From the UHGV virus genome UHGV-0797471: a stretch of 42,236 bases of DNA. One strand, 5' to 3'. Below, one piece after another: positions 1-37,543 of the stretch (the stretch's first letter is position 1; the number at the start of each line of letters is the position of its first letter). Under the pieces are notes generated by a model. It was not told the origin of the DNA and did no database searches. It saw only the letters and a program-made list of their open reading frames with translations. The DNA comes from a virus. The translations under genes and the position numbers were made by a program.

Positions 1-472
1 ATTCTCAATCCTTATCTGCGTAGGCGCAGAAAACAAGCACACACATACAAGTCTTTTCTACGGGACAAAATGCAATGTGTTGCGGCTTTGTGTTACTGGA
101 CTGAGTTTATCAAGGTTAAATACACTGGATCAACATACAGTAAGTTAATGACAGTAAAGCATACAAACTCGATACAACTTACTGATTTTTAAAATGATTT
201 AACGGTAATTCATTGAAATGTCTTTACTAATTACTAAACGCTGTATTAATTGTGATATGTGTGAAATTAAATAAAAATACATTTATTTTCATGGTGATGC
301 AGTAATGTGTTATTGAATGTGTTATTGAATTTATGGTGCAAAAAAATTTTGCATACGTTCAGCAACACAAAGAGCTCCCCTTTCTATAAAGGTTCATTTG
401 AGACTCCCCCTTGACTCCCTCTTCGAAATTGAAGACCATTAACTGTACATAATTACAGTCCTGGATAATATT

Positions 473-739
473 ATGCGCAGAAAAGAATCAAACGTTAGCA
501 GTTTGCCGGAACTCACCAATTTTGAGGTAAGCTATTCCCTAGTTACCAATGAAGTTTACTTGTCTGCATCCTTCACTGATAACATGGCCTGTATACCAAA
601 CTGGCCCTTACAAGAATTTCCGGATCAACTAATATGCATTTCTCGAGCAAAAGCTATTGCCCTAATCGAAGAGCTCCAGAAGACCATCGACTATATGGAC
701 GCAGGAATCGATCGACAATCAGGTAGCCTGCTCCAGTAG
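473..739 (+). CDS. Hypothetical small protein (88 aa) in AT-rich cargo region
   Basis: ORF in six-frame track; no recognisable motif; weak ribosome-binding site; AT-rich context. Confidence 0.25.
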   Translation: MRRKESNVSSLPELTNFEVSYSLVTNEVYLSASFTDNMACIPNWPLQEFPDQLICISRAKAIALIEELQKTIDYMDAGIDRQSGSLLQ

Positions 740-1040
740 CTGGCGAGTTTTATACTCGTTCCCTGCAACAATGGGCTTTTGGTAAGGCACTCACAAATAA
801 GGAATTCGTTAAGGCTTTTGTTCTGGAGACTCTGAAAGATACAAGGAATCAGTTGATGGCTGGTTTGATCATACTAATTAATATATTGTCAAACTCACAA
901 TATATTAATTAGTGGTAGAACATAAAACCGAGTTCTTGACTTTCAATAGCTATTATATGCGATCAACAACCTTAACCATCTCCTTATATTTTATGAGATA
1001 CTCAAACAATTTAAATTTATGAGCAAAGGAAAATAATAAA

Positions 1041-1886
1041 GTGAATAAAAATCCCTGGGATATTCCAGCATGGCACGCTCTGGGCCGAGAAGCATCTTTA
1101 GTTACACAGCTCATTGGTTCTGGGGCAACAGCCATAGGTAAAGCCAATTATGCAGACAAAATAGGTGAATATTACACAGCATTTTTTGGGCTTTCTGTAG
1201 GTTTTGAGAGACTTGCTAAACTAATACTTGTTGCACACTATGCCATTGAACACAAAGGGAAAATGCCTGATGAGAATATTGTAAGAAAATTTGGACATAA
1301 GCTCATTGAATTAACCAACGAGGTTGATAGTATTTCTAAAAAAATGCAACTATCTCTGAGATATTCACGTCCTACACATAAAATTACCTACAAAATACTT
1401 GAATGTTTAGATTCCTTTGCTGATGCCCGACGGGGACGTTACGCAAATTTCTCCTCATTAAGCAGCCCCAATTTAACCAATAATGAACCTATTAATAAAT
1501 GGTGGGGAGAAGTAGCCGAGAGTATCCTTGAAAAACATTATTATTATACAGTTGAACAAAGACGTGTTGAAGAAAATGCTAGGTTTATCAATGCCACTCT
1601 TTCACCGTATACAACGGTCATGTATATGAATGAAAGTACCAACATTATGCAAGACCTTATATCAGCCTCCATCCGTACTGGACAAAATACCATTGTTCAA
1701 AAGTGGGGAAGATTCTATTCTCTTAGCATCGCTCGTTGGCTTGCCACAGTATTAGCAGAACTGTCTGATATAGCTTCTCATAAATATGGAATAATTAGTT
1801 TTTATGGCCTTAGTGAACATTGTTGCAGTTATATAGTTGAAGATAGTTTTTTAAAAAACAGAAAAATATGGCCACTTCGCCAATAG
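1041..1886 (+). CDS. Hypothetical cargo (moron) protein, 281 aa, function unknown
   Basis: GTG start with AAAGGA Shine-Dalgarno about 9 nt upstream; AT-rich compared with tail genes; ends 5 bp from the truncated invertase stop; no family recognised by eye. Confidence 0.5.
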   Translation: MNKNPWDIPAWHALGREASLVTQLIGSGATAIGKANYADKIGEYYTAFFGLSVGFERLAKLILVAHYAIEHKGKMPDENIVRKFGHKLIELTNEVDSISKKMQLSLRYSRPTHKITYKILECLDSFADARRGRYANFSSLSSPNLTNNEPINKWWGEVAESILEKHYYYTVEQRRVEENARFINATLSPYTTVMYMNESTNIMQDLISASIRTGQNTIVQKWGRFYSLSIARWLATVLAELSDIASHKYGIISFYGLSEHCCSYIVEDSFLKNRKIWPLRQ

Positions 1887-1890
1887 TTAA

Positions 1891-2205
1891 CTAGAAAATC
1901 TGCATAAGGGGGAGAAATCCCCCACCTGTAATAACATAACTACTAAAATTAACACCTTGTTCGCACAACTCCTCCACCAGCACGACAAGATGCCGCACAC
2001 TGCGCCCCAGCCGATCCAGCTTCCAGACAACCAGAGTGTCACCTGCCGATAATGTCCTGAGCAGTTTTTTCAGTCCCGGCCTTTCGGACTTTGTACCGCT
2101 TATCTTGTCTTCAAAAAACAGCTCGCATCCTGCACAGTTCAGCGCATTACGTTGTAGATCTGTGTTCTGGTCATTTGTTGACACACGTACATAGCCAATA
2201 AGCAT
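1891..2205 (-). pseudogene. Truncated serine recombinase / DNA invertase (Gin/Hin/Pin/Cin family), catalytic N-terminus only
   Basis: MLIGYVRVSTNDQNTDLQRNAL...GDTLVVWKLDRLGRS matches the invertase catalytic domain. The ORF stops after about 104 aa where full-length invertases are about 185-195 aa. No C-terminal HTH segment in any minus-strand frame; a G/C homopolymer sits at the divergence point. Confidence 0.7.
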
Positions 2206-2231
2206 AGTGGATCCCTCTGACAAAAGCAGGA

Positions 2232-2630
2232 ATGATGCCATTTGCTCGTTATTTCTGCATTTTCATAAACGTTGGTTTGGGAGAAGCGGCAAAACGGAAT
2301 GTGGGCACAGGAGATAATCAGATACCGGATATGGGAGCATTCGCTTCTGGTTCGGGATGGTTCAGGCTACCAGGTGGATATATTGTTCAGTTTGGCACTT
2401 TTTCAGGAAACACGACCCGCTTTATCAGTGGACACTTCCCTATACCATTCCCTAATCAGCCGATGATTTCAGTCAGTGTTATGTCTGATGCCGTTCAGTC
2501 AGACCCGTCGAATCCTGCCCCGCAGGTTTTGTCTGTAAATTTTGAACATATCAGTAATTCAGCGTGGCGTGTGGCAACCAGTGATATCTCACAGCAATAC
2601 AGATTCAGTTATATTTCGATAGGACGGTAG
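2232..2630 (+). CDS. Alternative tail-fibre C-terminal cassette (silent orientation; would fuse to the constant N-terminus after inversion)
   Basis: Shares the NxGLGE junction with tail fibre 3638-4450 at the inverted-repeat crossover; followed by a tail-fibre assembly gene; lacks its own N-terminal constant part. Confidence 0.5.
   Translation: MMPFARYFCIFINVGLGEAAKRNVGTGDNQIPDMGAFASGSGWFRLPGGYIVQFGTFSGNTTRFISGHFPIPFPNQPMISVSVMSDAVQSDPSNPAPQVLSVNFEHISNSAWRVATSDISQQYRFSYISIGR
2261..2286. repeat. Invertase crossover site (hix/gix-like), left copy
   Basis: Reverse complement CTTCTCCCAAACCAACGTTTATGAAA. The 15-mer CTTCTCCCAAACCAA is a perfect inverted repeat of 4081-4095. Resemblance to the hix/gix consensus is judged from memory. 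Confidence 0.55.
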
Positions 2631-2632
2631 AA

Positions 2633-3073
2633 ATGCAGAAATATATTTTCAGTGCCGATAAAAATGCGTTTTTCCCTGTGGAGCTTAAAATCGCTTATCA
2701 GGAATCCGGCGAATGGCCCGATGATGGAATCGAAATTGACGACACTGTTGCTGCCGAATTTATGAAGGAAGCACCAGAAGGAAAATACAGAGGTGTCATC
2801 GACGGAATGCCTGCATGGATTGATATTCCACCGCCAACTCATGAGGAACAAATTGCCGCAGCCGAACTGAAAAAGCAGCAATTGATTAATCAGGTCAACG
2901 AATACATAAACAGTAAGCAATGGCCTGGTAAAGCGGCGATTGGTCGCCTGAAAGGTGAGGAACTGGTGCAATATAATTTGTGGCTGGATTATCTGGACGC
3001 ACTGGAACTGGTCGATACTTCCGGTGCGCCAGATATTGAATGGCCTACGCCTCCGGCAGTTCAGGCCAGATGA
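2633..3073 (+). CDS. Tail fibre assembly protein (alternative copy)
   Basis: C-terminus ...[14 protein letters not shown] parallels the ...[14 protein letters not shown] end of the convergent assembly gene; position mirrors Mu U'. Confidence 0.6.
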   Translation: MQKYIFSADKNAFFPVELKIAYQESGEWPDDGIEIDDTVAAEFMKEAPEGKYRGVIDGMPAWIDIPPPTHEEQIAAAELKKQQLINQVNEYINSKQWPGKAAIGRLKGEELVQYNLWLDYLDALELVDTSGAPDIEWPTPPAVQAR

Positions 3074-3641
3074 CATCCGGCGCGGTGCTGGTATCTGTTG
3101 CCGTCACCGCGTCAATGTAATCCAGCACAGCGTTAAGCCGGGTTGTTTCTGCCTGCGTCAGTTTCCGCCCGGCTTGTAATTTCAGCTGAATCAGACTAAT
3201 GGAAGCCATTGCTGCATCAATCAGTGACTGGCGCTGTGCTTCTGACGCGTCTACTGCGGCGCTATGCTGTGCCTCGGTATCCGTCACCCATTTCTCACCA
3301 TCCCATTTATCGTATGGCGTTAACGGTGAAAGCGTGACATAACCATCTTTGATGGCACCGATATAATCCACTGTAACAGCTGCGCCATTTTCGATTGAGT
3401 AAACAGTCTCATTGCGATGGTCCTCTTCATGGCTCCATCCCTTACCTGTAAATACAGCCACTTTTCCCGGAATGTTTTCGCCAGGGTTAATTCCAGTGGA
3501 ACAGGCGGGCATACTTACGCCAGTATTAATATATTCATCAGACCAGCCCGTATACTCAGATGTTTCAGCATCATAATAAAAACAACGCATATCGCCCGGC
3601 ACTGTAGCCAGTCCATTTTCATCAAAAATTGGGGTCATCAT
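3045..3641 (-). CDS. Tail fibre assembly protein
   Basis: Conserved C-terminal assembly-protein motif; immediately downstream of the tail fibre gene. Confidence 0.7.
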
Positions 3642-4450
3642 TTAGCCCTCACCAGAAAGTTAAATGCAATATTTCGCGGTCTGACGGCAACAAAATTCAC
3701 ACCATCACCCACAGAGTTACTGGTGAAATTAAATCGTGAAAATCCTGGCTGATTTCCGGCGATACCATCATGAAAATTAATTGTGTGGCCCGCACCATCG
3801 CCTATATTCCCGGCAAACTGAGAAAAGTTTGTAGCTGCCTGCCAGCTTAATAATTCGCGACCACCGTCTGCACCTCGCCCGTCATCCCAGATACGAATGA
3901 AATCACCGCGGGCTTCAGGTAATACCAGCGAAGGAAACACTTTCGCCAGCACAGGGTAATCAGAGGCAGAAAATTTCGCCCCGTTAAACTTCAAAAACAC
4001 CATACCGGACCAGCTGTCGATGACAGAATTTGGCATTGCAGCGGACGGCCAGAAGAACGGAACGCCAATAGCTGGGGCACCTTCTCCCAAACCAAGGTTT
4101 TCGAGAGCTGTTTTCACCGTGCCGTCCGATTTGATATCGCCAAACGGATTCTTGCGGCTCAGGTATTCAACAGCAAACCCCGATCCCAGCAATTCAACAA
4201 AACCGGGCAGATCACCATTATCAAGCACATCCCGTTGCGTTTTATCACTTACAAACTGGGCCAGAGCTGCAGCAATAAAGCTGGCCTGCCGAATAACCTT
4301 ATTGACTTGCGCACTGGAGGCTTTCCCTGCTGTAAATCCAGATAAAAGCGCGGGCAACGCTTCCCATTCCTCCTGCGATATAACATTGGCATTTCGATCC
4401 GTTGCAAACGCTTTAAAGTCATTTTTCGCCATCAGAGTAATACTCCCCAT
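3638..4450 (-). CDS. Tail fibre protein (constant N-terminus plus currently expressed variable C-terminus)
   Basis: Position between baseplate genes and assembly protein; crossover site lies inside the ORF at codons 117-124. Confidence 0.65.
4082..4107. repeat. Invertase crossover site (hix/gix-like), right copy
   Basis: TTCTCCCAAACCAAGGTTTTCGAGAG; inverted partner of 2261-2286, about 22 of 26 positions matching. Confidence 0.55.
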
Positions 4451-5112
4451 GCTCCTACATCAAAACCACTGATGAATTCGTTATCCATATCAAAACCAAA
4501 AAATTTTGAGCCTTCCGATGGGGTTTCCACCGAAGGTGTTTCAATGCCACCCGCCCATACCCCGGCGGCTTTTACTGTGAGATACCCCTGTTTAATTGCC
4601 GCAATTAACTCACGCGATACATCTGAAATATCAGTATCAGGAAAGACCCAGACCGATATCGTCATGTCCTGGTTATCGACTATCTGCATTCGCAGCCCGG
4701 ATCCTGCTGTTGCCGCGTCAAGAATTGCCGGAAGCGAATCATTCCGTCCGTCCCAGTTATTAATCGCAATCTTCGCTTTAAGAATGACACGATAAGTTTC
4801 ATCGCTGAGATACATGTATCCTGAATCAGGATCGTATGGTCCCTGCCATACCCCCTGATCATATCCAAGCCCGTCGGTATCCCAGCTGAAATAGACACCT
4901 GAGATAGGCTGGCTGACAACACGGCTACGTCCGATCCACAATCCAAGGATGTCAAGTTGCACACCAACCGCAGAGTCAATATCAAATGCACTAATCAGCC
5001 CTCTGGTGGCAGCCGCAACATCAATAAGTGGCCGGGTCATCAGATCAACATGCGCAAGAAATTTAGGTTTGGTGGCGTGGTAGTTCGTGATTAGTTCGGT
5101 GTATTTGCTCAT
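4432..5112 (-). CDS. Tail/baseplate protein (wedge-like)
   Basis: Position between baseplate J-like gene and tail fibre; 19-nt overlap with tail fibre start. Confidence 0.45.
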
Positions 5113-7473: not shown

Positions 7474-7986
7474 CTATCGGTGGATAGTATTAAAGTATTC
7501 AGAAAGCTGATTATCAGTTATCAAACACAACTGCATCAAATAAATAGAGTATTTCAATAACTTTTCATCACGAACGGGGGCGGGACGTAAATACTTCCCG
7601 CCGTGAAAGAGATTATTTCTTATATACGGGATCTGCTTTAATGCTTCAGCAAGAGAATGAGGTTCGATTGGAGGTTTATCCTCCCACGAAAAATCATGCC
7701 TCTGCTGCTTCACAGGTTGCTGACATAGATACTCAACTGCCCTATCGACATTTCTATTTCCAGTAGGATATAAAGGCCGCGTATCATCAGTAGCGTAGCG
7801 GCTCCAGTCAGCACCGATTAGATAATTTCTACGATCAGTTTTTTTGAAATTAATTCTTTTTAACGCATATTCGAAACGCGAAAAATAATTAAAAAACCTT
7901 ATAACAAGAGTAATATCAATTCCGCCGAGAAGTTCCTGAAAGTCAGGGTCTTGAAATGAATTCAAAGGATCATCATCAACTGTCAC
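7474..7986 (-). CDS. Moron protein with HEPN-like R-x4-H motif (candidate RNase-type toxin / abortive-infection protein)
   Basis: RNNLFH at residues 123-128 of 170 fits the R-x4-6-H HEPN signature; AT-rich; inserted between baseplate genes; ATGA overlap with the upstream gene. Confidence 0.4.
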   Translation of the reverse strand: MTVDDDPLNSFQDPDFQELLGGIDITLVIRFFNYFSRFEYALKRINFKKTDRRNYLIGADWSRYATDDTRPLYPTGNRNVDRAVEYLCQQPVKQQRHDFSWEDKPPIEPHSLAEALKQIPYIRNNLFHGGKYLRPAPVRDEKLLKYSIYLMQLCLITDNQLSEYFNTIHR

Positions 7987-8318
7987 TTGCTGCTCACTTT
8001 TTTACACGGGAAAGATCCAATGATTTTCGGCGCGTCCATGCTGTTCTGCAGCAGCTGGACGTTCAGGAAAGCTTTTCCGTTACGTTTCACAAACTCAAAG
8101 CCGTAATTGTTACCATCACGGGAAGGCATCAGGCCCATGTCCATTTTCATGTTTGAATAGTCACCATCTTTTCCCAGAAATTTTATCTTCTGTGATGTGA
8201 CAGTTTCACCGTTAATAACAGTCATTCCGTCACCGGTCATCGTGTAGTTGCCGCACTGAATTGCAGCCATCGCCGGAGCAGTAACCATCATAACTAACGC
8301 CAAACATAACCGTTTCAT
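7983..8318 (-). CDS. Small secreted/periplasmic protein (signal peptide), moron
   Basis: N-terminus MKRLCLALVMMVTAPAMA is a typical Sec signal peptide; 111 aa; not a structural-protein pattern. Confidence 0.5.
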   Translation of the reverse strand: MKRLCLALVMMVTAPAMAAIQCGNYTMTGDGMTVINGETVTSQKIKFLGKDGDYSNMKMDMGLMPSRDGNNYGFEFVKRNGKAFLNVQLLQNSMDAPKIIGSFPCKKVSSK

Positions 8319-36781: not shown

Positions 36782-37543
36782 ATGCAGGAACTAACTGAAA
36801 TGCCGATCAACTATCCATACCCGAGAGAATCTTTTCCTGACTTTTTGAGGGAGTGTGGGTTCACCAATTTTTCCCACGAACAGCGTGAGACTTATGACTG
36901 CTATCGTTTAACGAATGGCGTAATTGTTAACCTTTACACCACCCGGACCATTCAGTTTCAAGGGAACCCTCAAGAACGTCCCAATGTTGAAACTGCAATA
37001 ATGTCCCATTTAGGAACGCCCCCCACGGCAACACCACTAGCCGTAGAACAGCCATCTGAGCTTCCCAAAAAGATATTCATTGTTCACGGCCATGACCATA
37101 CTGCAAAGGAACAACTTGAGCTAATCCTTCATAAACTTGGATTACCAGACCATTTCATTTTGCAGAATACGGGAGGGACTGGACTCACCATTATTGAAGA
37201 GCTTGAACGTGAAATTGGGCAAGGACAAACTGCTACTCGTTTCGGGATTGTTCTTTTGACACCTGATGATATGGGATACTCAAAGCGCGCCGGTGAAGCA
37301 GAAATCCAACCCCGCGCAAGACAGAACGTTGTACTCGAGATGGGTATGCTTCTTTCGTCCTTAGGGCGCAGCAATGTAGCAATCCTTCAGAAACAGCACC
37401 TAGAACAGCCTTCTGATGCTAACGGGATTTTGTATCTGAATTTCAACGACCATGTACGTGAAACAGTTCCTCGTCTAGTGCAACGGTTACAAAATTCTGG
37501 TTTCGAATTTACACAAGCTCAAATAGCTAACGCTTCCTCGTAA
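36782..37543 (+). CDS. TIR-like domain protein (COG4271 / PF10137-type nucleotide-binding TIR-like), with 95-aa N-terminal extension
   Basis: KIFIVHGHD...GIVLLTPDDMGY...ARQNVVLEMGMLLSSLGRSNVAIL matches the hallmark motifs of this family as recalled; AT-richer than flanks; followed by its own terminator. Confidence 0.6.
   Translation: MQELTEMPINYPYPRESFPDFLRECGFTNFSHEQRETYDCYRLTNGVIVNLYTTRTIQFQGNPQERPNVETAIMSHLGTPPTATPLAVEQPSELPKKIFIVHGHDHTAKEQLELILHKLGLPDHFILQNTGGTGLTIIEELEREIGQGQTATRFGIVLLTPDDMGYSKRAGEAEIQPRARQNVVLEMGMLLSSLGRSNVAILQKQHLEQPSDANGILYLNFNDHVRETVPRLVQRLQNSGFEFTQAQIANASS

What the first reader, a model, noticed from the sequence alone, without database searches (positions are those of the whole stretch)
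1891..4107. Gin/Hin-type invertible tail-fibre segment with hix-like crossover sites but a truncated invertase
Seen in sequence: a 15-bp perfect inverted repeat (2272-2286 vs 4081-4095), extending to about 26 bp with roughly 22 of 26 matches, flanks a 1.8-kb segment. The segment contains two convergent tail-fibre assembly genes and two alternative tail-fibre C-terminal cassettes. The right site lies inside the tail-fibre ORF at a shared NxGLGE junction, so inversion would swap the C-terminus in frame. The adjacent invertase gene retains only about 104 aa of catalytic domain.

Established knowledge: this is the Mu G / P1 C / e14 P host-range switch architecture.

Inference: the switch is probably locked in the current orientation unless an invertase is supplied in trans by another prophage.
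Basis: partly seen in the sequence, partly recalled or inferred. Interest (0 to 1): 0.6.

Follow-up and report, generated by a model that had tools for sequence, protein, structure and literature searches.

The report
Phage host-range switch lacking its invertase
This is an ordinary e14/Mu-type invertible tail-fibre segment in an intact temperate E. coli phage whose own invertase gene is cut in half, and related genomes show the segment has still flipped, so it probably borrows an invertase from other resident elements.

Summary
Two inverted 26-bp crossover sites (2260-2285, 4082-4107) flank a 1.8-kb segment. Both sites are 26/26 identical to the two sites of the E. coli K-12 e14 P segment. 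The segment carries two convergent tail-fibre chaperone genes and two alternative fibre C-termini.

The adjacent invertase gene keeps only codons 1-89 of a PinE-like gene (1939-2205). An AT-rich cargo block (755-1944) replaced its 3' half. No 3' half exists anywhere in the window.

The window is a whole 42-kb temperate phage in attP form. The same prophage sits at yfhL in 43 of 5,426 complete E. coli genomes, always with this truncation.

The switch is not simply dead. In two separate lineages, genomes with identical flanks and the same remnant carry the segment precisely inverted at the repeat. The window's orientation dominates: 18 versus 3 complete genomes, and about 663 versus 56 contigs.

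Flipped copies lie mostly in genomes that hold another invertase. This fits "locked unless an invertase comes in trans" but does not prove it.

It is a known architecture, and the phage is already deposited and annotated. Interest is low to moderate.

The parts
755..1944 (.). AT-rich cargo block whose acquisition removed the 3' half of the invertase gene. It contains a 281-aa ORF (1041-1886, +) of unknown function and a GGGGGA/TCCCCC hairpin at 1908-1923.
   Evidence: A relative with full-length pinE (E. coli BH100, L015) aligns to window 228-754 and 1945-2286 but not in between. There it holds a different 215-aa cargo gene plus the pinE 3' 294 nt. GC is 32-39% here against 44-55% to the right. 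The ORF has no hit in Pfam, PADLOC, PHROGs or NCBIfam.
1939..2205 (-). Invertase remnant: codons 1-89 of a PinE-like serine DNA invertase. It retains the catalytic Ser9 but lacks helix E and the DNA-binding domain. The frame runs on through 15 unrelated codons to a stop at 1891-1893.
   Evidence: Pfam Resolvase, profile positions 2-98 of 145, E=1.5e-28. Alignments to full-length invertases diverge after residue 89. It matches residues 1-91 of the 193-aa Gin structures 4M6F and 3UJ3. It is 95% identical in DNA to e14 pinE. PGAP marks it as a pseudogene. No 3' half is present elsewhere in the window.
2116..2187 (.). Stretch equivalent to the recombinational (Fis) enhancer: nt 19-90 of the invertase gene, retained inside the remnant.
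   Evidence: The P1 record annotates the Cin enhancer at nt 19-90 of cin. The window's equivalent stretch is 69/72 identical to e14 pinE, 54/72 to cin and 53/72 to gin. The Hin enhancer is 65 bp and lies about 100 bp from a hix site (PMC3798978). Function here is inferred by homology only.
2260..2285 (.). Left 26-bp crossover site, TTTTCATAAACG-TT-GGTTTGGGAGAA, with central dinucleotide at 2272-2273.
   Evidence: It is 26/26 identical to the e14 site next to pinE. The inversion breakpoints in natural copies fall inside it.
2232..2630 (+). Silent cassette ORF of 132 aa. An 18-codon leader outside the segment (MMPFARYFCIFINVGLGE) is fused to the alternative gp53-like fibre C-terminus (2287-2630).
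   Evidence: Pfam Gp53-like_C, E=4.5e-9. The leader is conserved with e14 stfE and in all relatives examined. After inversion this C-terminus joins the fibre N-terminus in frame.
2633..3073 (+). Tail-fibre assembly chaperone for the silent cassette (146 aa, TfaP-like).
   Evidence: Pfam Caudo_TAP, E=9e-34. It is 56% identical to e14 TfaP.
3045..3641 (-). Tail-fibre assembly chaperone for the expressed cassette (198 aa, TfaE-like).
   Evidence: Pfam Caudo_TAP, E=5e-26. It is 63.5% identical to e14 TfaE.
3638..4450 (-). Expressed tail fibre, 270 aa (264 aa from the annotated start). The constant N-terminus (4096-4450) lies outside the segment. The variable collar-type C-terminus (3638-4093) lies inside it.
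   Evidence: PHROG tail-fibre families, E down to 9e-81. Residues 118-269 are 42% identical to e14 StfE, and the motif before the site is shared with e14 StfP.
4082..4107 (.). Right 26-bp crossover site inside the fibre gene. On the minus strand it reads CTCTCGAAAACC-TT-GGTTTGGGAGAA. The central dinucleotide is at 4094-4095.
   Evidence: It is 26/26 identical to the e14 site inside stfP. DNA homology to an unrelated P2-like phage ends at 4106.
2273..4094 (.). The invertible segment itself, 1822 bp from site centre to site centre.
   Evidence: It is found precisely inverted, with identical flanks, in E. coli 22AR0747 relative to the window and strain WP3-W18-ESBL-08. The homologous segment is likewise inverted between strains 97-3250 and O111:H11 8D.

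Best explanation
The region is an e14 P-segment-type host-range switch in an otherwise intact 42-kb temperate myovirus-like phage that integrates at yfhL.

How the switch is built: the late operon reads leftwards into a short tail-fibre gene. The fibre's N-terminus is fixed. Its C-terminus and the matching chaperone lie inside a 1.8-kb segment bounded by two inverted 26-bp sites. Inversion at the central dinucleotide swaps in the other C-terminus and chaperone in frame.

What went wrong: in this phage lineage a cargo-gene replacement at the prophage end deleted codons 90 onward of the PinE-like invertase. The phage therefore cannot make a protein that binds the sites or forms a dimer. Everything needed in cis survives: both sites, identical central dinucleotides, and the enhancer-equivalent stretch in the gene's 5' end.

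Consequence (inferred): the segment rests in one orientation, the one in the window. It flips only when a compatible serine invertase is supplied by another prophage or plasmid in the same cell.

Shown: the anatomy, the lesion, and natural inversion behind the lesion. Inferred: that the inversions were catalysed in trans.
For: Identity of the system:
- Both sites are 26/26 identical to e14's.
- The remnant is 95% identical to pinE.
- The gene order and chaperone pairs match e14.

The lesion:
- Homology to full-length invertases ends at residue 89.
- A sister phage in E. coli BH100 has an intact 184-aa pinE and a different cargo gene in the same slot.
- All truncated alleles share the same breakpoint and the derived changes M70V, R83Q and R88S, so the truncation happened once.
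- They show a raised nonsynonymous:synonymous ratio: 6:6 and 9:6, against 2:10 and 6:30 in intact genes.

Inversion after truncation:
- In the ST38-like group, flanks are identical and the segment 2267-4100 is reversed exactly at the repeat. Each outer half-site stays with its flank.
- The same holds in an EHEC-like group, whose left flank is 100% identical over 2559 bp.

Bias in orientation:
- 18 versus 3 complete genomes.
- Exact fibre proteins occur on 663 versus 56 contigs.
- For comparison, a paper reports 33% inverted copies for e14, which has an intact pinE (PMC12529663).

Helpers:
- A Din-type invertase 3' half elsewhere on the chromosome is present in 2 of 3 flipped genomes and 1 of 18 unflipped ones (Fisher one-sided p=0.041).
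- The third flipped genome has a PinR/Q-type gene.
- None of the 10 genomes without any detectable second invertase is flipped.

Precedent: in K-12, a pinE mutant locks the e14 segment. PinQ from another prophage inverts the same sites in trans when overproduced (PMC12529663).
Against: - The helper association rests on small numbers of related genomes and is not corrected for phylogeny. It weakens to p=0.12 if PinR/Q-type genes are counted as helpers.
- Helper loci were counted through 'places per record'. I could not view them, so their completeness is unverified.
- Plasmid-borne invertases, such as those on P1-like plasmids, were not assigned to genomes.
- Eight unflipped genomes do carry another invertase.
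- Sequence alone cannot distinguish site-specific crossover from rare homologous recombination within the 15-20 bp repeat.
- No read-level data were available to show switching within one culture.
Confidence: 0.7

Rival explanations
1. The switch is a dead fossil that never inverts any more. On this view the two orientations in databases are inherited from before the truncation. Alternatively, they arose when recombination between related prophages moved the truncated gene next to a segment of the other orientation.
For: Prophages of this family are mosaic. The remnant's 5' part in strain MS20658 differs by 28 synonymous codon changes, and cassettes differ between lineages. One orientation dominates strongly.
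Against: The truncation has a single origin, so it arose in one orientation. In two lineages the opposite orientations have flanks that are identical or near-identical: 100% on the left and at most 1 mismatch in 1620 bp on the right. The segments differ only by the repeat asymmetry. A recombinational origin would need crossovers within the 60 bp between the remnant and the site, twice. The silent cassette and its chaperone are still intact ORFs.
Confidence: 0.12
2. The inversions arise without any invertase, through rare RecA-dependent or replication-slippage recombination between the 15-20 bp inverted repeats.
For: The crossover points cannot be told apart from homologous exchange inside the 15-bp identical core. 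One flipped genome has no Din-type invertase on its chromosome.
Against: From my own knowledge, 15-20 bp is below the roughly 23-27 bp usually needed for efficient RecA recombination in E. coli. Flips are enriched where a Din-type invertase is present. The K-12 pinE mutant, with the same repeats, is reported as locked (PMC12529663).
Confidence: 0.1
3. The opposite orientation in some genome records is an assembly artefact.
For: Invertible regions can break or confuse assemblies. Two deposited prophage records from one strain (689R2 and 689R6) end at or near this module.
Against: The repeats are only 20 bp, far shorter than any read. The flipped state is seen in three independent complete genomes of one group and several of another. 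The flipped fibre protein occurs on 56 contigs from several sources.
Confidence: 0.03
4. The 104-aa remnant protein is itself still an active invertase.
For: It keeps the active-site serine and the conserved D/R residues of the catalytic core.
Against: It lacks everything after residue 89 of a roughly 185-193-aa enzyme, including helix E and the DNA-binding domain. Both are needed for dimerisation, for site binding and for the Fis contact (PMC3798978). It also accumulates nonsynonymous changes.
Confidence: 0.02

Closest known systems
P segment and PinE of the E. coli K-12 cryptic prophage e14
   Same: - Both 26-bp sites are identical.
- The gene order is the same, with the same short leader ORF next to pin.
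- The segment size is nearly the same: 1822 versus 1827 bp centre to centre.
- The invertase 5' end is 95% identical.
- A variable cargo slot lies beyond pin; it holds mcrA in e14.
   Different: - e14 has an intact 184-aa PinE and switches on its own.
- e14 is a defective remnant, whereas this is a complete phage.
- One cassette here is a gp53-like type not found in e14.
G segment and Gin of phage Mu; C segment and Cin of phage P1
   Same: - Serine (Din-family) invertase systems that swap the fibre C-terminus and its chaperone by inversion between two 26-bp sites.
- The enhancer lies in the invertase gene's 5' end.
- The remnant matches the Gin crystal structures.
   Different: - The segments are longer (3 to 4.2 kb).
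- The cassettes are unrelated.
- The sites differ in sequence: Mu gix is TTCCTGTAAACCGAGGTTTTGGATAA.
- Their invertases are intact.
- In P1 the site overlaps the 3' end of cin.
Trans-acting inversion between prophages: PinQ of Qin acting on e14 (Kirigo et al., NAR 2025, PMC12529663), and Fin complementing Hin in Salmonella (Kutsukake 2006; cited, not read)
   Same: An invertase encoded by one element inverts a segment in another. The sites involved for PinQ have the same core as here.
   Different: In those cases the target still has its own invertase. Here the cognate gene is destroyed in the whole phage lineage, so any switching would be wholly dependent on a helper.
Salmonella phage SEN34 (Brunovirus), the nearest classified relative of this phage
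   Same: It shares the terminase-to-baseplate module, including the baseplate J-like and DUF2612-like genes immediately before the fibre.
   Different: SEN34 has a single fibre and chaperone. It has no invertase and no invertible segment.

Membership tests
Din-family (Gin/Cin/Pin/Hin) invertible tail-fibre switch, e14 P-segment type | Two roughly 26-bp imperfectly palindromic crossover sites in inverted orientation with matching central dinucleotides | tested here: met
   Sites at 2260-2285 and 4082-4107, with centres TT and AA. Each is 26/26 identical to an e14 site. The pair is not expected by chance.
Din-family (Gin/Cin/Pin/Hin) invertible tail-fibre switch, e14 P-segment type | An adjacent, complete serine invertase gene (catalytic domain, helix E, helix-turn-helix domain) | tested here: not met
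   Only residues 1-89 of about 185 remain. No 3' half is found anywhere in the window. The gene is a pseudogene in RefSeq annotation.
Din-family (Gin/Cin/Pin/Hin) invertible tail-fibre switch, e14 P-segment type | A recombinational enhancer with Fis sites in cis, within the 5' part of the invertase gene | tested here: inconclusive
   The stretch homologous to the annotated P1 enhancer (nt 19-90) is present at 2116-2187 and is 69/72 identical to e14 pinE. Fis binding and enhancer activity cannot be tested with these tools.
Din-family (Gin/Cin/Pin/Hin) invertible tail-fibre switch, e14 P-segment type | The segment carries two alternative fibre C-termini, each with its own chaperone, in opposite orientation. 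The constant N-terminus and promoter lie outside, and both fusions are in frame. | tested here: met
   The alternative fusion is annotated as an intact protein in a natural inverted copy.
Din-family (Gin/Cin/Pin/Hin) invertible tail-fibre switch, e14 P-segment type | The segment is actually found in both orientations | tested here: met
   Precise inversions are seen between near-identical prophages in two lineages. The census gives 18:3 genomes and 663:56 contigs. Switching within a single culture was not testable.
Din-family (Gin/Cin/Pin/Hin) invertible tail-fibre switch, e14 P-segment type | Inversion alters the phage's adsorption specificity | not testable with these tools
   This is inferred from the two unrelated C-terminal domains: collar-type versus gp53-like.

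The most novel reading that the evidence does not exclude
A whole lineage of functional temperate phages keeps an 'orphan' host-range switch, with the sites, enhancer, both cassettes and both chaperones intact but no invertase. Which receptor-binding tip its progeny carry would then depend on which other invertase-bearing prophage or plasmid shares the lysogen. That would be a dependence of one phage's host range on its co-residents.

A further untested possibility concerns the conserved leader-fused cassette ORF (2232-2630). It could act in the lysogen like e14 StfE2, which blocks T2 adsorption.
Probability: 0.35. Interest if true: 0.45.

Novelty: new member of a known kind. Interest (0 to 1): 0.3.

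Why it matters
The finding mainly confirms that a textbook switch is present and that its recombinase gene is broken. The modest added value comes from public genomes, which show the broken switch still being flipped occasionally. That gives a natural example of cross-talk between mobile elements through a shared recombinase.

If confirmed, host-range predictions for such prophages would need to take the rest of the mobilome into account. A 'pseudogene' invertase would then not by itself mean a frozen tail fibre. It also marks the DNA just beyond the invertase gene as a cargo-exchange hotspot, where gene gain can damage the neighbouring gene.

Tried and rejected
- **Viewing the helper invertase loci.** I tried to see these loci in the flipped genomes. 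The similarity search shows only the best place per record. I therefore used chimeric queries (a lineage-specific tag plus invertase 3' halves) and read 'places per record'. This gives counts but not coordinates or completeness.
- **Probe sensitivity.** A first single-allele 3'-half probe looked too insensitive, because Din 3' halves are only 62-70% identical to one another. A five-allele probe gave the same counts.
- **Plasmids of strain 1296KP.** I tried to reach them by neighbouring accession numbers. One accession did not exist and the other belonged to a different strain.
- **Fis consensus.** A strict Fis-consensus regular expression found nothing useful in any invertase gene except one hit in gin. 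I relied on homology to the annotated P1 enhancer instead.
- **Promoters and terminators.** The scan of 1800-4600 gave no more hits than shuffled sequence, so I make no promoter claim for the leader ORF.
- **Other prophages in the depositing strains.** A phage-collection search for other invertase-bearing prophages from the strains that yielded the deposited copies found none.
- **Selection on the enhancer.** I rejected the idea that the remnant is kept by selection for its enhancer. The EHEC-like lineage has 5 changes in that stretch and has still inverted.
- **The 281-aa cargo protein.** It had no hit in four profile libraries. I did not pursue it with the costly searches.
Full report
**What the window is.** The window's first 265 bases are contiguous with its last base in E. 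coli prophage copies. Window 228-42236 and 1-265 map head to tail onto one prophage in strain WP3-W18-ESBL-08, with 7 mismatches in 42 kb. The window is therefore a complete temperate phage genome written in its excised (attP) form. In lysogens it sits between yfhH and yfhL. Annotation of the prophage shows an almost entirely intact gene set, from integrase through replication, lysis, head, tail and baseplate genes. Near-identical copies are deposited as predicted phages vB_EcoM-606R2, -611R5 and -683R1. The nearest classified relative named in the literature is Salmonella phage SEN34, genus Brunovirus. SEN34 shares the tail and baseplate module but has a single fibre and no invertible segment.

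**Checking the observation.** The inverted repeat is real. Its arms are 2267-2286 and 4081-4100, 19/20 complementary, with a perfect 15-bp core. The 19-nt core pattern occurs exactly twice in 42 kb and never twice in 100 shuffles. Written as 26-bp sites, the left one (2260-2285) and the right one (4082-4107) match each other at 21/26. They share identical inner half-sites and the central dinucleotide.

Between the sites lie two convergent Caudo_TAP chaperone genes (2633-3073 on the plus strand, 3045-3641 on the minus strand). There is also the variable C-terminus of the expressed fibre (3638-4450, minus strand; PHROG tail-fibre hits). A silent gp53-like C-terminal cassette lies at 2287-2630. 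The crossover lies within the codons for N-L-G-L-G-E in the fibre and N-V-G-L-G-E in the silent ORF. A simulated exchange gives an in-frame alternative fibre.

**The invertase lesion.** The ORF next to the left site matches the Resolvase catalytic domain over profile positions 2-98 of 145. It matches residues 1-91 of the 193-residue Gin structures. DNA and protein alignments with full-length invertases show homology for codons 1-89 only (window 2205 down to 1939). Fifteen unrelated codons and a stop follow. tblastn with PinE, Gin, Cin and PinR finds nothing resembling the missing half in any frame of the window. NCBI's annotation pipeline calls the gene 'incomplete, missing C-terminus'.

The cause is visible in a sister prophage at the same chromosomal site in E. 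coli BH100. That prophage has an intact 184-aa pinE and a different 215-aa cargo gene. The window aligns with it at 228-754 and 1945-2286 but not in between. Block 755-1944 is AT-rich (32-39% GC) and carries a 281-aa ORF with no family match. It replaced the old cargo together with the last 294 nt of pinE. In e14 the corresponding slot holds mcrA, so this is a cargo-exchange position.

**What system it is.** Both 26-bp sites are 26/26 identical to the two sites of the K-12 e14 P segment. The remnant's 267 nt are 95% identical to e14 pinE. The chaperones are 63.5% and 56% identical to TfaE and TfaP, and the expressed cassette is StfE-like. The short leader ORF that runs from beside the invertase gene into the segment (MMPFARYFCIFINVGLGE) is conserved with e14 stfE.

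The module is exchanged between unrelated phages. A P2-like phage (500465-2) shares window 2003-4106 at 94% identity, and the homology stops at the outer edge of the right site.

The stretch equivalent to the enhancer annotated in P1 cin (nt 19-90) is retained at 2116-2187. It is 69/72 identical to pinE. This agrees with the published position of the Hin enhancer, about 100 bp from a hix site (PMC3798978). The cis-acting parts therefore look complete and only the enzyme is missing.

**Is it locked?** I searched 5,426 complete E. coli genomes. The cargo-plus-remnant junction occurs in 43 of them, plus one more interrupted by an insertion of about 1.3 kb at the hairpin. All truncated alleles I read share the breakpoint and the derived changes M70V, R83Q and R88S. 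This points to a single truncation event. They also show relaxed protein constraint: nonsynonymous to synonymous codon changes of 6:6 and 9:6, against 2:10 and 6:30 in intact genes.

Within the near-identical (at least 99.9%) group, which includes ST38 strains:
- 18 genomes have the window's orientation.
- 3 genomes (22AR0747, MSB1_6C, 1296KP) have the opposite one.
- In 22AR0747 the flanks are identical to those of an unflipped strain.
- There, segment 2267-4100 is reversed exactly at the repeat.
- Each outer half-site stays with its flank.
- The alternative fibre is annotated there as an intact protein.

A second, EHEC-like lineage with different cassettes shows the same thing. Strains 97-3250 and O111:H11 8D are 100% identical over the 2559-bp left flank (1 mismatch in the 1620-bp right flank), and their segment is exactly inverted. 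At least two inversions have therefore occurred after the truncation.

A wider census by exact protein sequence finds the window-orientation fibre on 663 contigs and the flipped fibre on 56. That is about 92:8. For e14, which has a working PinE, a paper reports 33% inverted copies among genomes (PMC12529663).

**Who does the flipping?** I counted other invertase genes on each chromosome. The method used a lineage-specific tag joined to the 3' halves of five Din-family invertase genes, and I read the number of matching places per record.
- A second Din-type 3' half is present in 2 of 3 flipped genomes and 1 of 18 unflipped ones in the first group. Fisher's one-sided test gives p=0.041.
- The third flipped genome has a PinR/Q-type gene.
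- Ten unflipped genomes have no detectable second serine invertase on the chromosome, and none of these is flipped.
- In the EHEC-like group, all four records with one orientation carry Din-type genes. Three of the five with the other orientation carry none.

These numbers are small and phylogenetically dependent, and they ignore plasmids. P1-like plasmids with Cin-type genes are common. The association becomes non-significant when PinR/Q-type genes are counted as helpers (p=0.12).

Published experiments supply the mechanism. In K-12 the e14 segment, with the same repeat core, is locked in a pinE mutant. It is inverted by PinE, and also in trans by overproduced PinQ from another prophage (PMC12529663).

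**Conclusion.** The region is a member of a well-known kind of system, in a phage that is already deposited and whose invertase is already flagged as a pseudogene. The one point beyond the textbook is that this invertase-less switch is fixed in a whole phage lineage yet has flipped repeatedly in nature. The most likely cause is borrowed invertases. That step is inferred, not shown.

**Unresolved.** Every ST38-like genome shows one extra high-similarity match to the 1939-2286 region that lacks a detectable invertase 3' half. I could not locate it.

Noticed in passing
window 1-270 and 42236: The window is a circular permutation of the excised phage. Window 218-268 encodes a replacement 5' end of the host ferredoxin gene yfhL (MSLLITKRCINCDMCE). 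In lysogens yfhL therefore starts with phage-derived codons and upstream DNA. The host's original 5' end is left as a fragment at the other junction. The identical att core is about 248-265.
   Followed up: partly
window 36782-37543 (+): A 253-aa TIR-domain protein in the early region matches the PADLOC candidate defence family PDC-S35 at E=1e-108. It is a likely prophage-borne anti-phage gene.
   Followed up: no
window 1041-1886 (+): A 281-aa AT-rich cargo ORF has no match in Pfam, PADLOC, PHROGs or NCBIfam. The exact protein is seen on at least 1000 public contigs. It occupies the slot that holds mcrA in e14 and a 215-aa ORF (WP_001288820.1) in the BH100 relative.
   Followed up: partly
window 2232-2285: An 18-codon leader outside the segment is fused in frame to whichever cassette faces the invertase gene. 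It is conserved with e14 stfE. In K-12 the equivalent leader-fused chimera, StfE2, is reported to block phage T2 adsorption (PMC12529663). No promoter evidence was found here.
   Followed up: partly
window 2250-2262 and 2631-2643: A perfect 13-nt inverted repeat (TATTTCTGCATTT / AAATGCAGAAATA) brackets the silent cassette ORF. By my estimate about 0.06 such repeats are expected by chance in this 2.8-kb stretch. No explanation was found.
   Followed up: no
window 1908-1923; E. coli CAU16175 chromosome near 4221466-4222804: In one genome about 1.3 kb is inserted at the GGGGGAGAAATCCCCC hairpin, and about 13 bp of the window are present on both sides. The size and the G/C-flanked target resemble IS186 from memory. 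This was not checked.
   Followed up: no
window 7474-8318 (-): Two small ORFs (170 aa and 111 aa) sit between baseplate genes. By eye the 111-aa one has a signal-peptide-like N-terminus. Both match only PHROG families of unknown function, so they look like inserted accessory genes.
   Followed up: no
ST38-like E. coli chromosomes (e.g. NZ_AP022003.1): Each shows one extra high-similarity match to window 1939-2286 (invertase 5' end and site) elsewhere in the chromosome. No detectable invertase 3' half accompanies it. It may be a second invertase remnant. I could not obtain its location.
   Followed up: partly
L007 2875-3072 (E. coli 97-3250): In the EHEC-like lineage the segment is shorter. The chaperone beside one cassette is only a 65-aa ORF. 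Cassette content differs between lineages that share the same truncated invertase.
   Followed up: no
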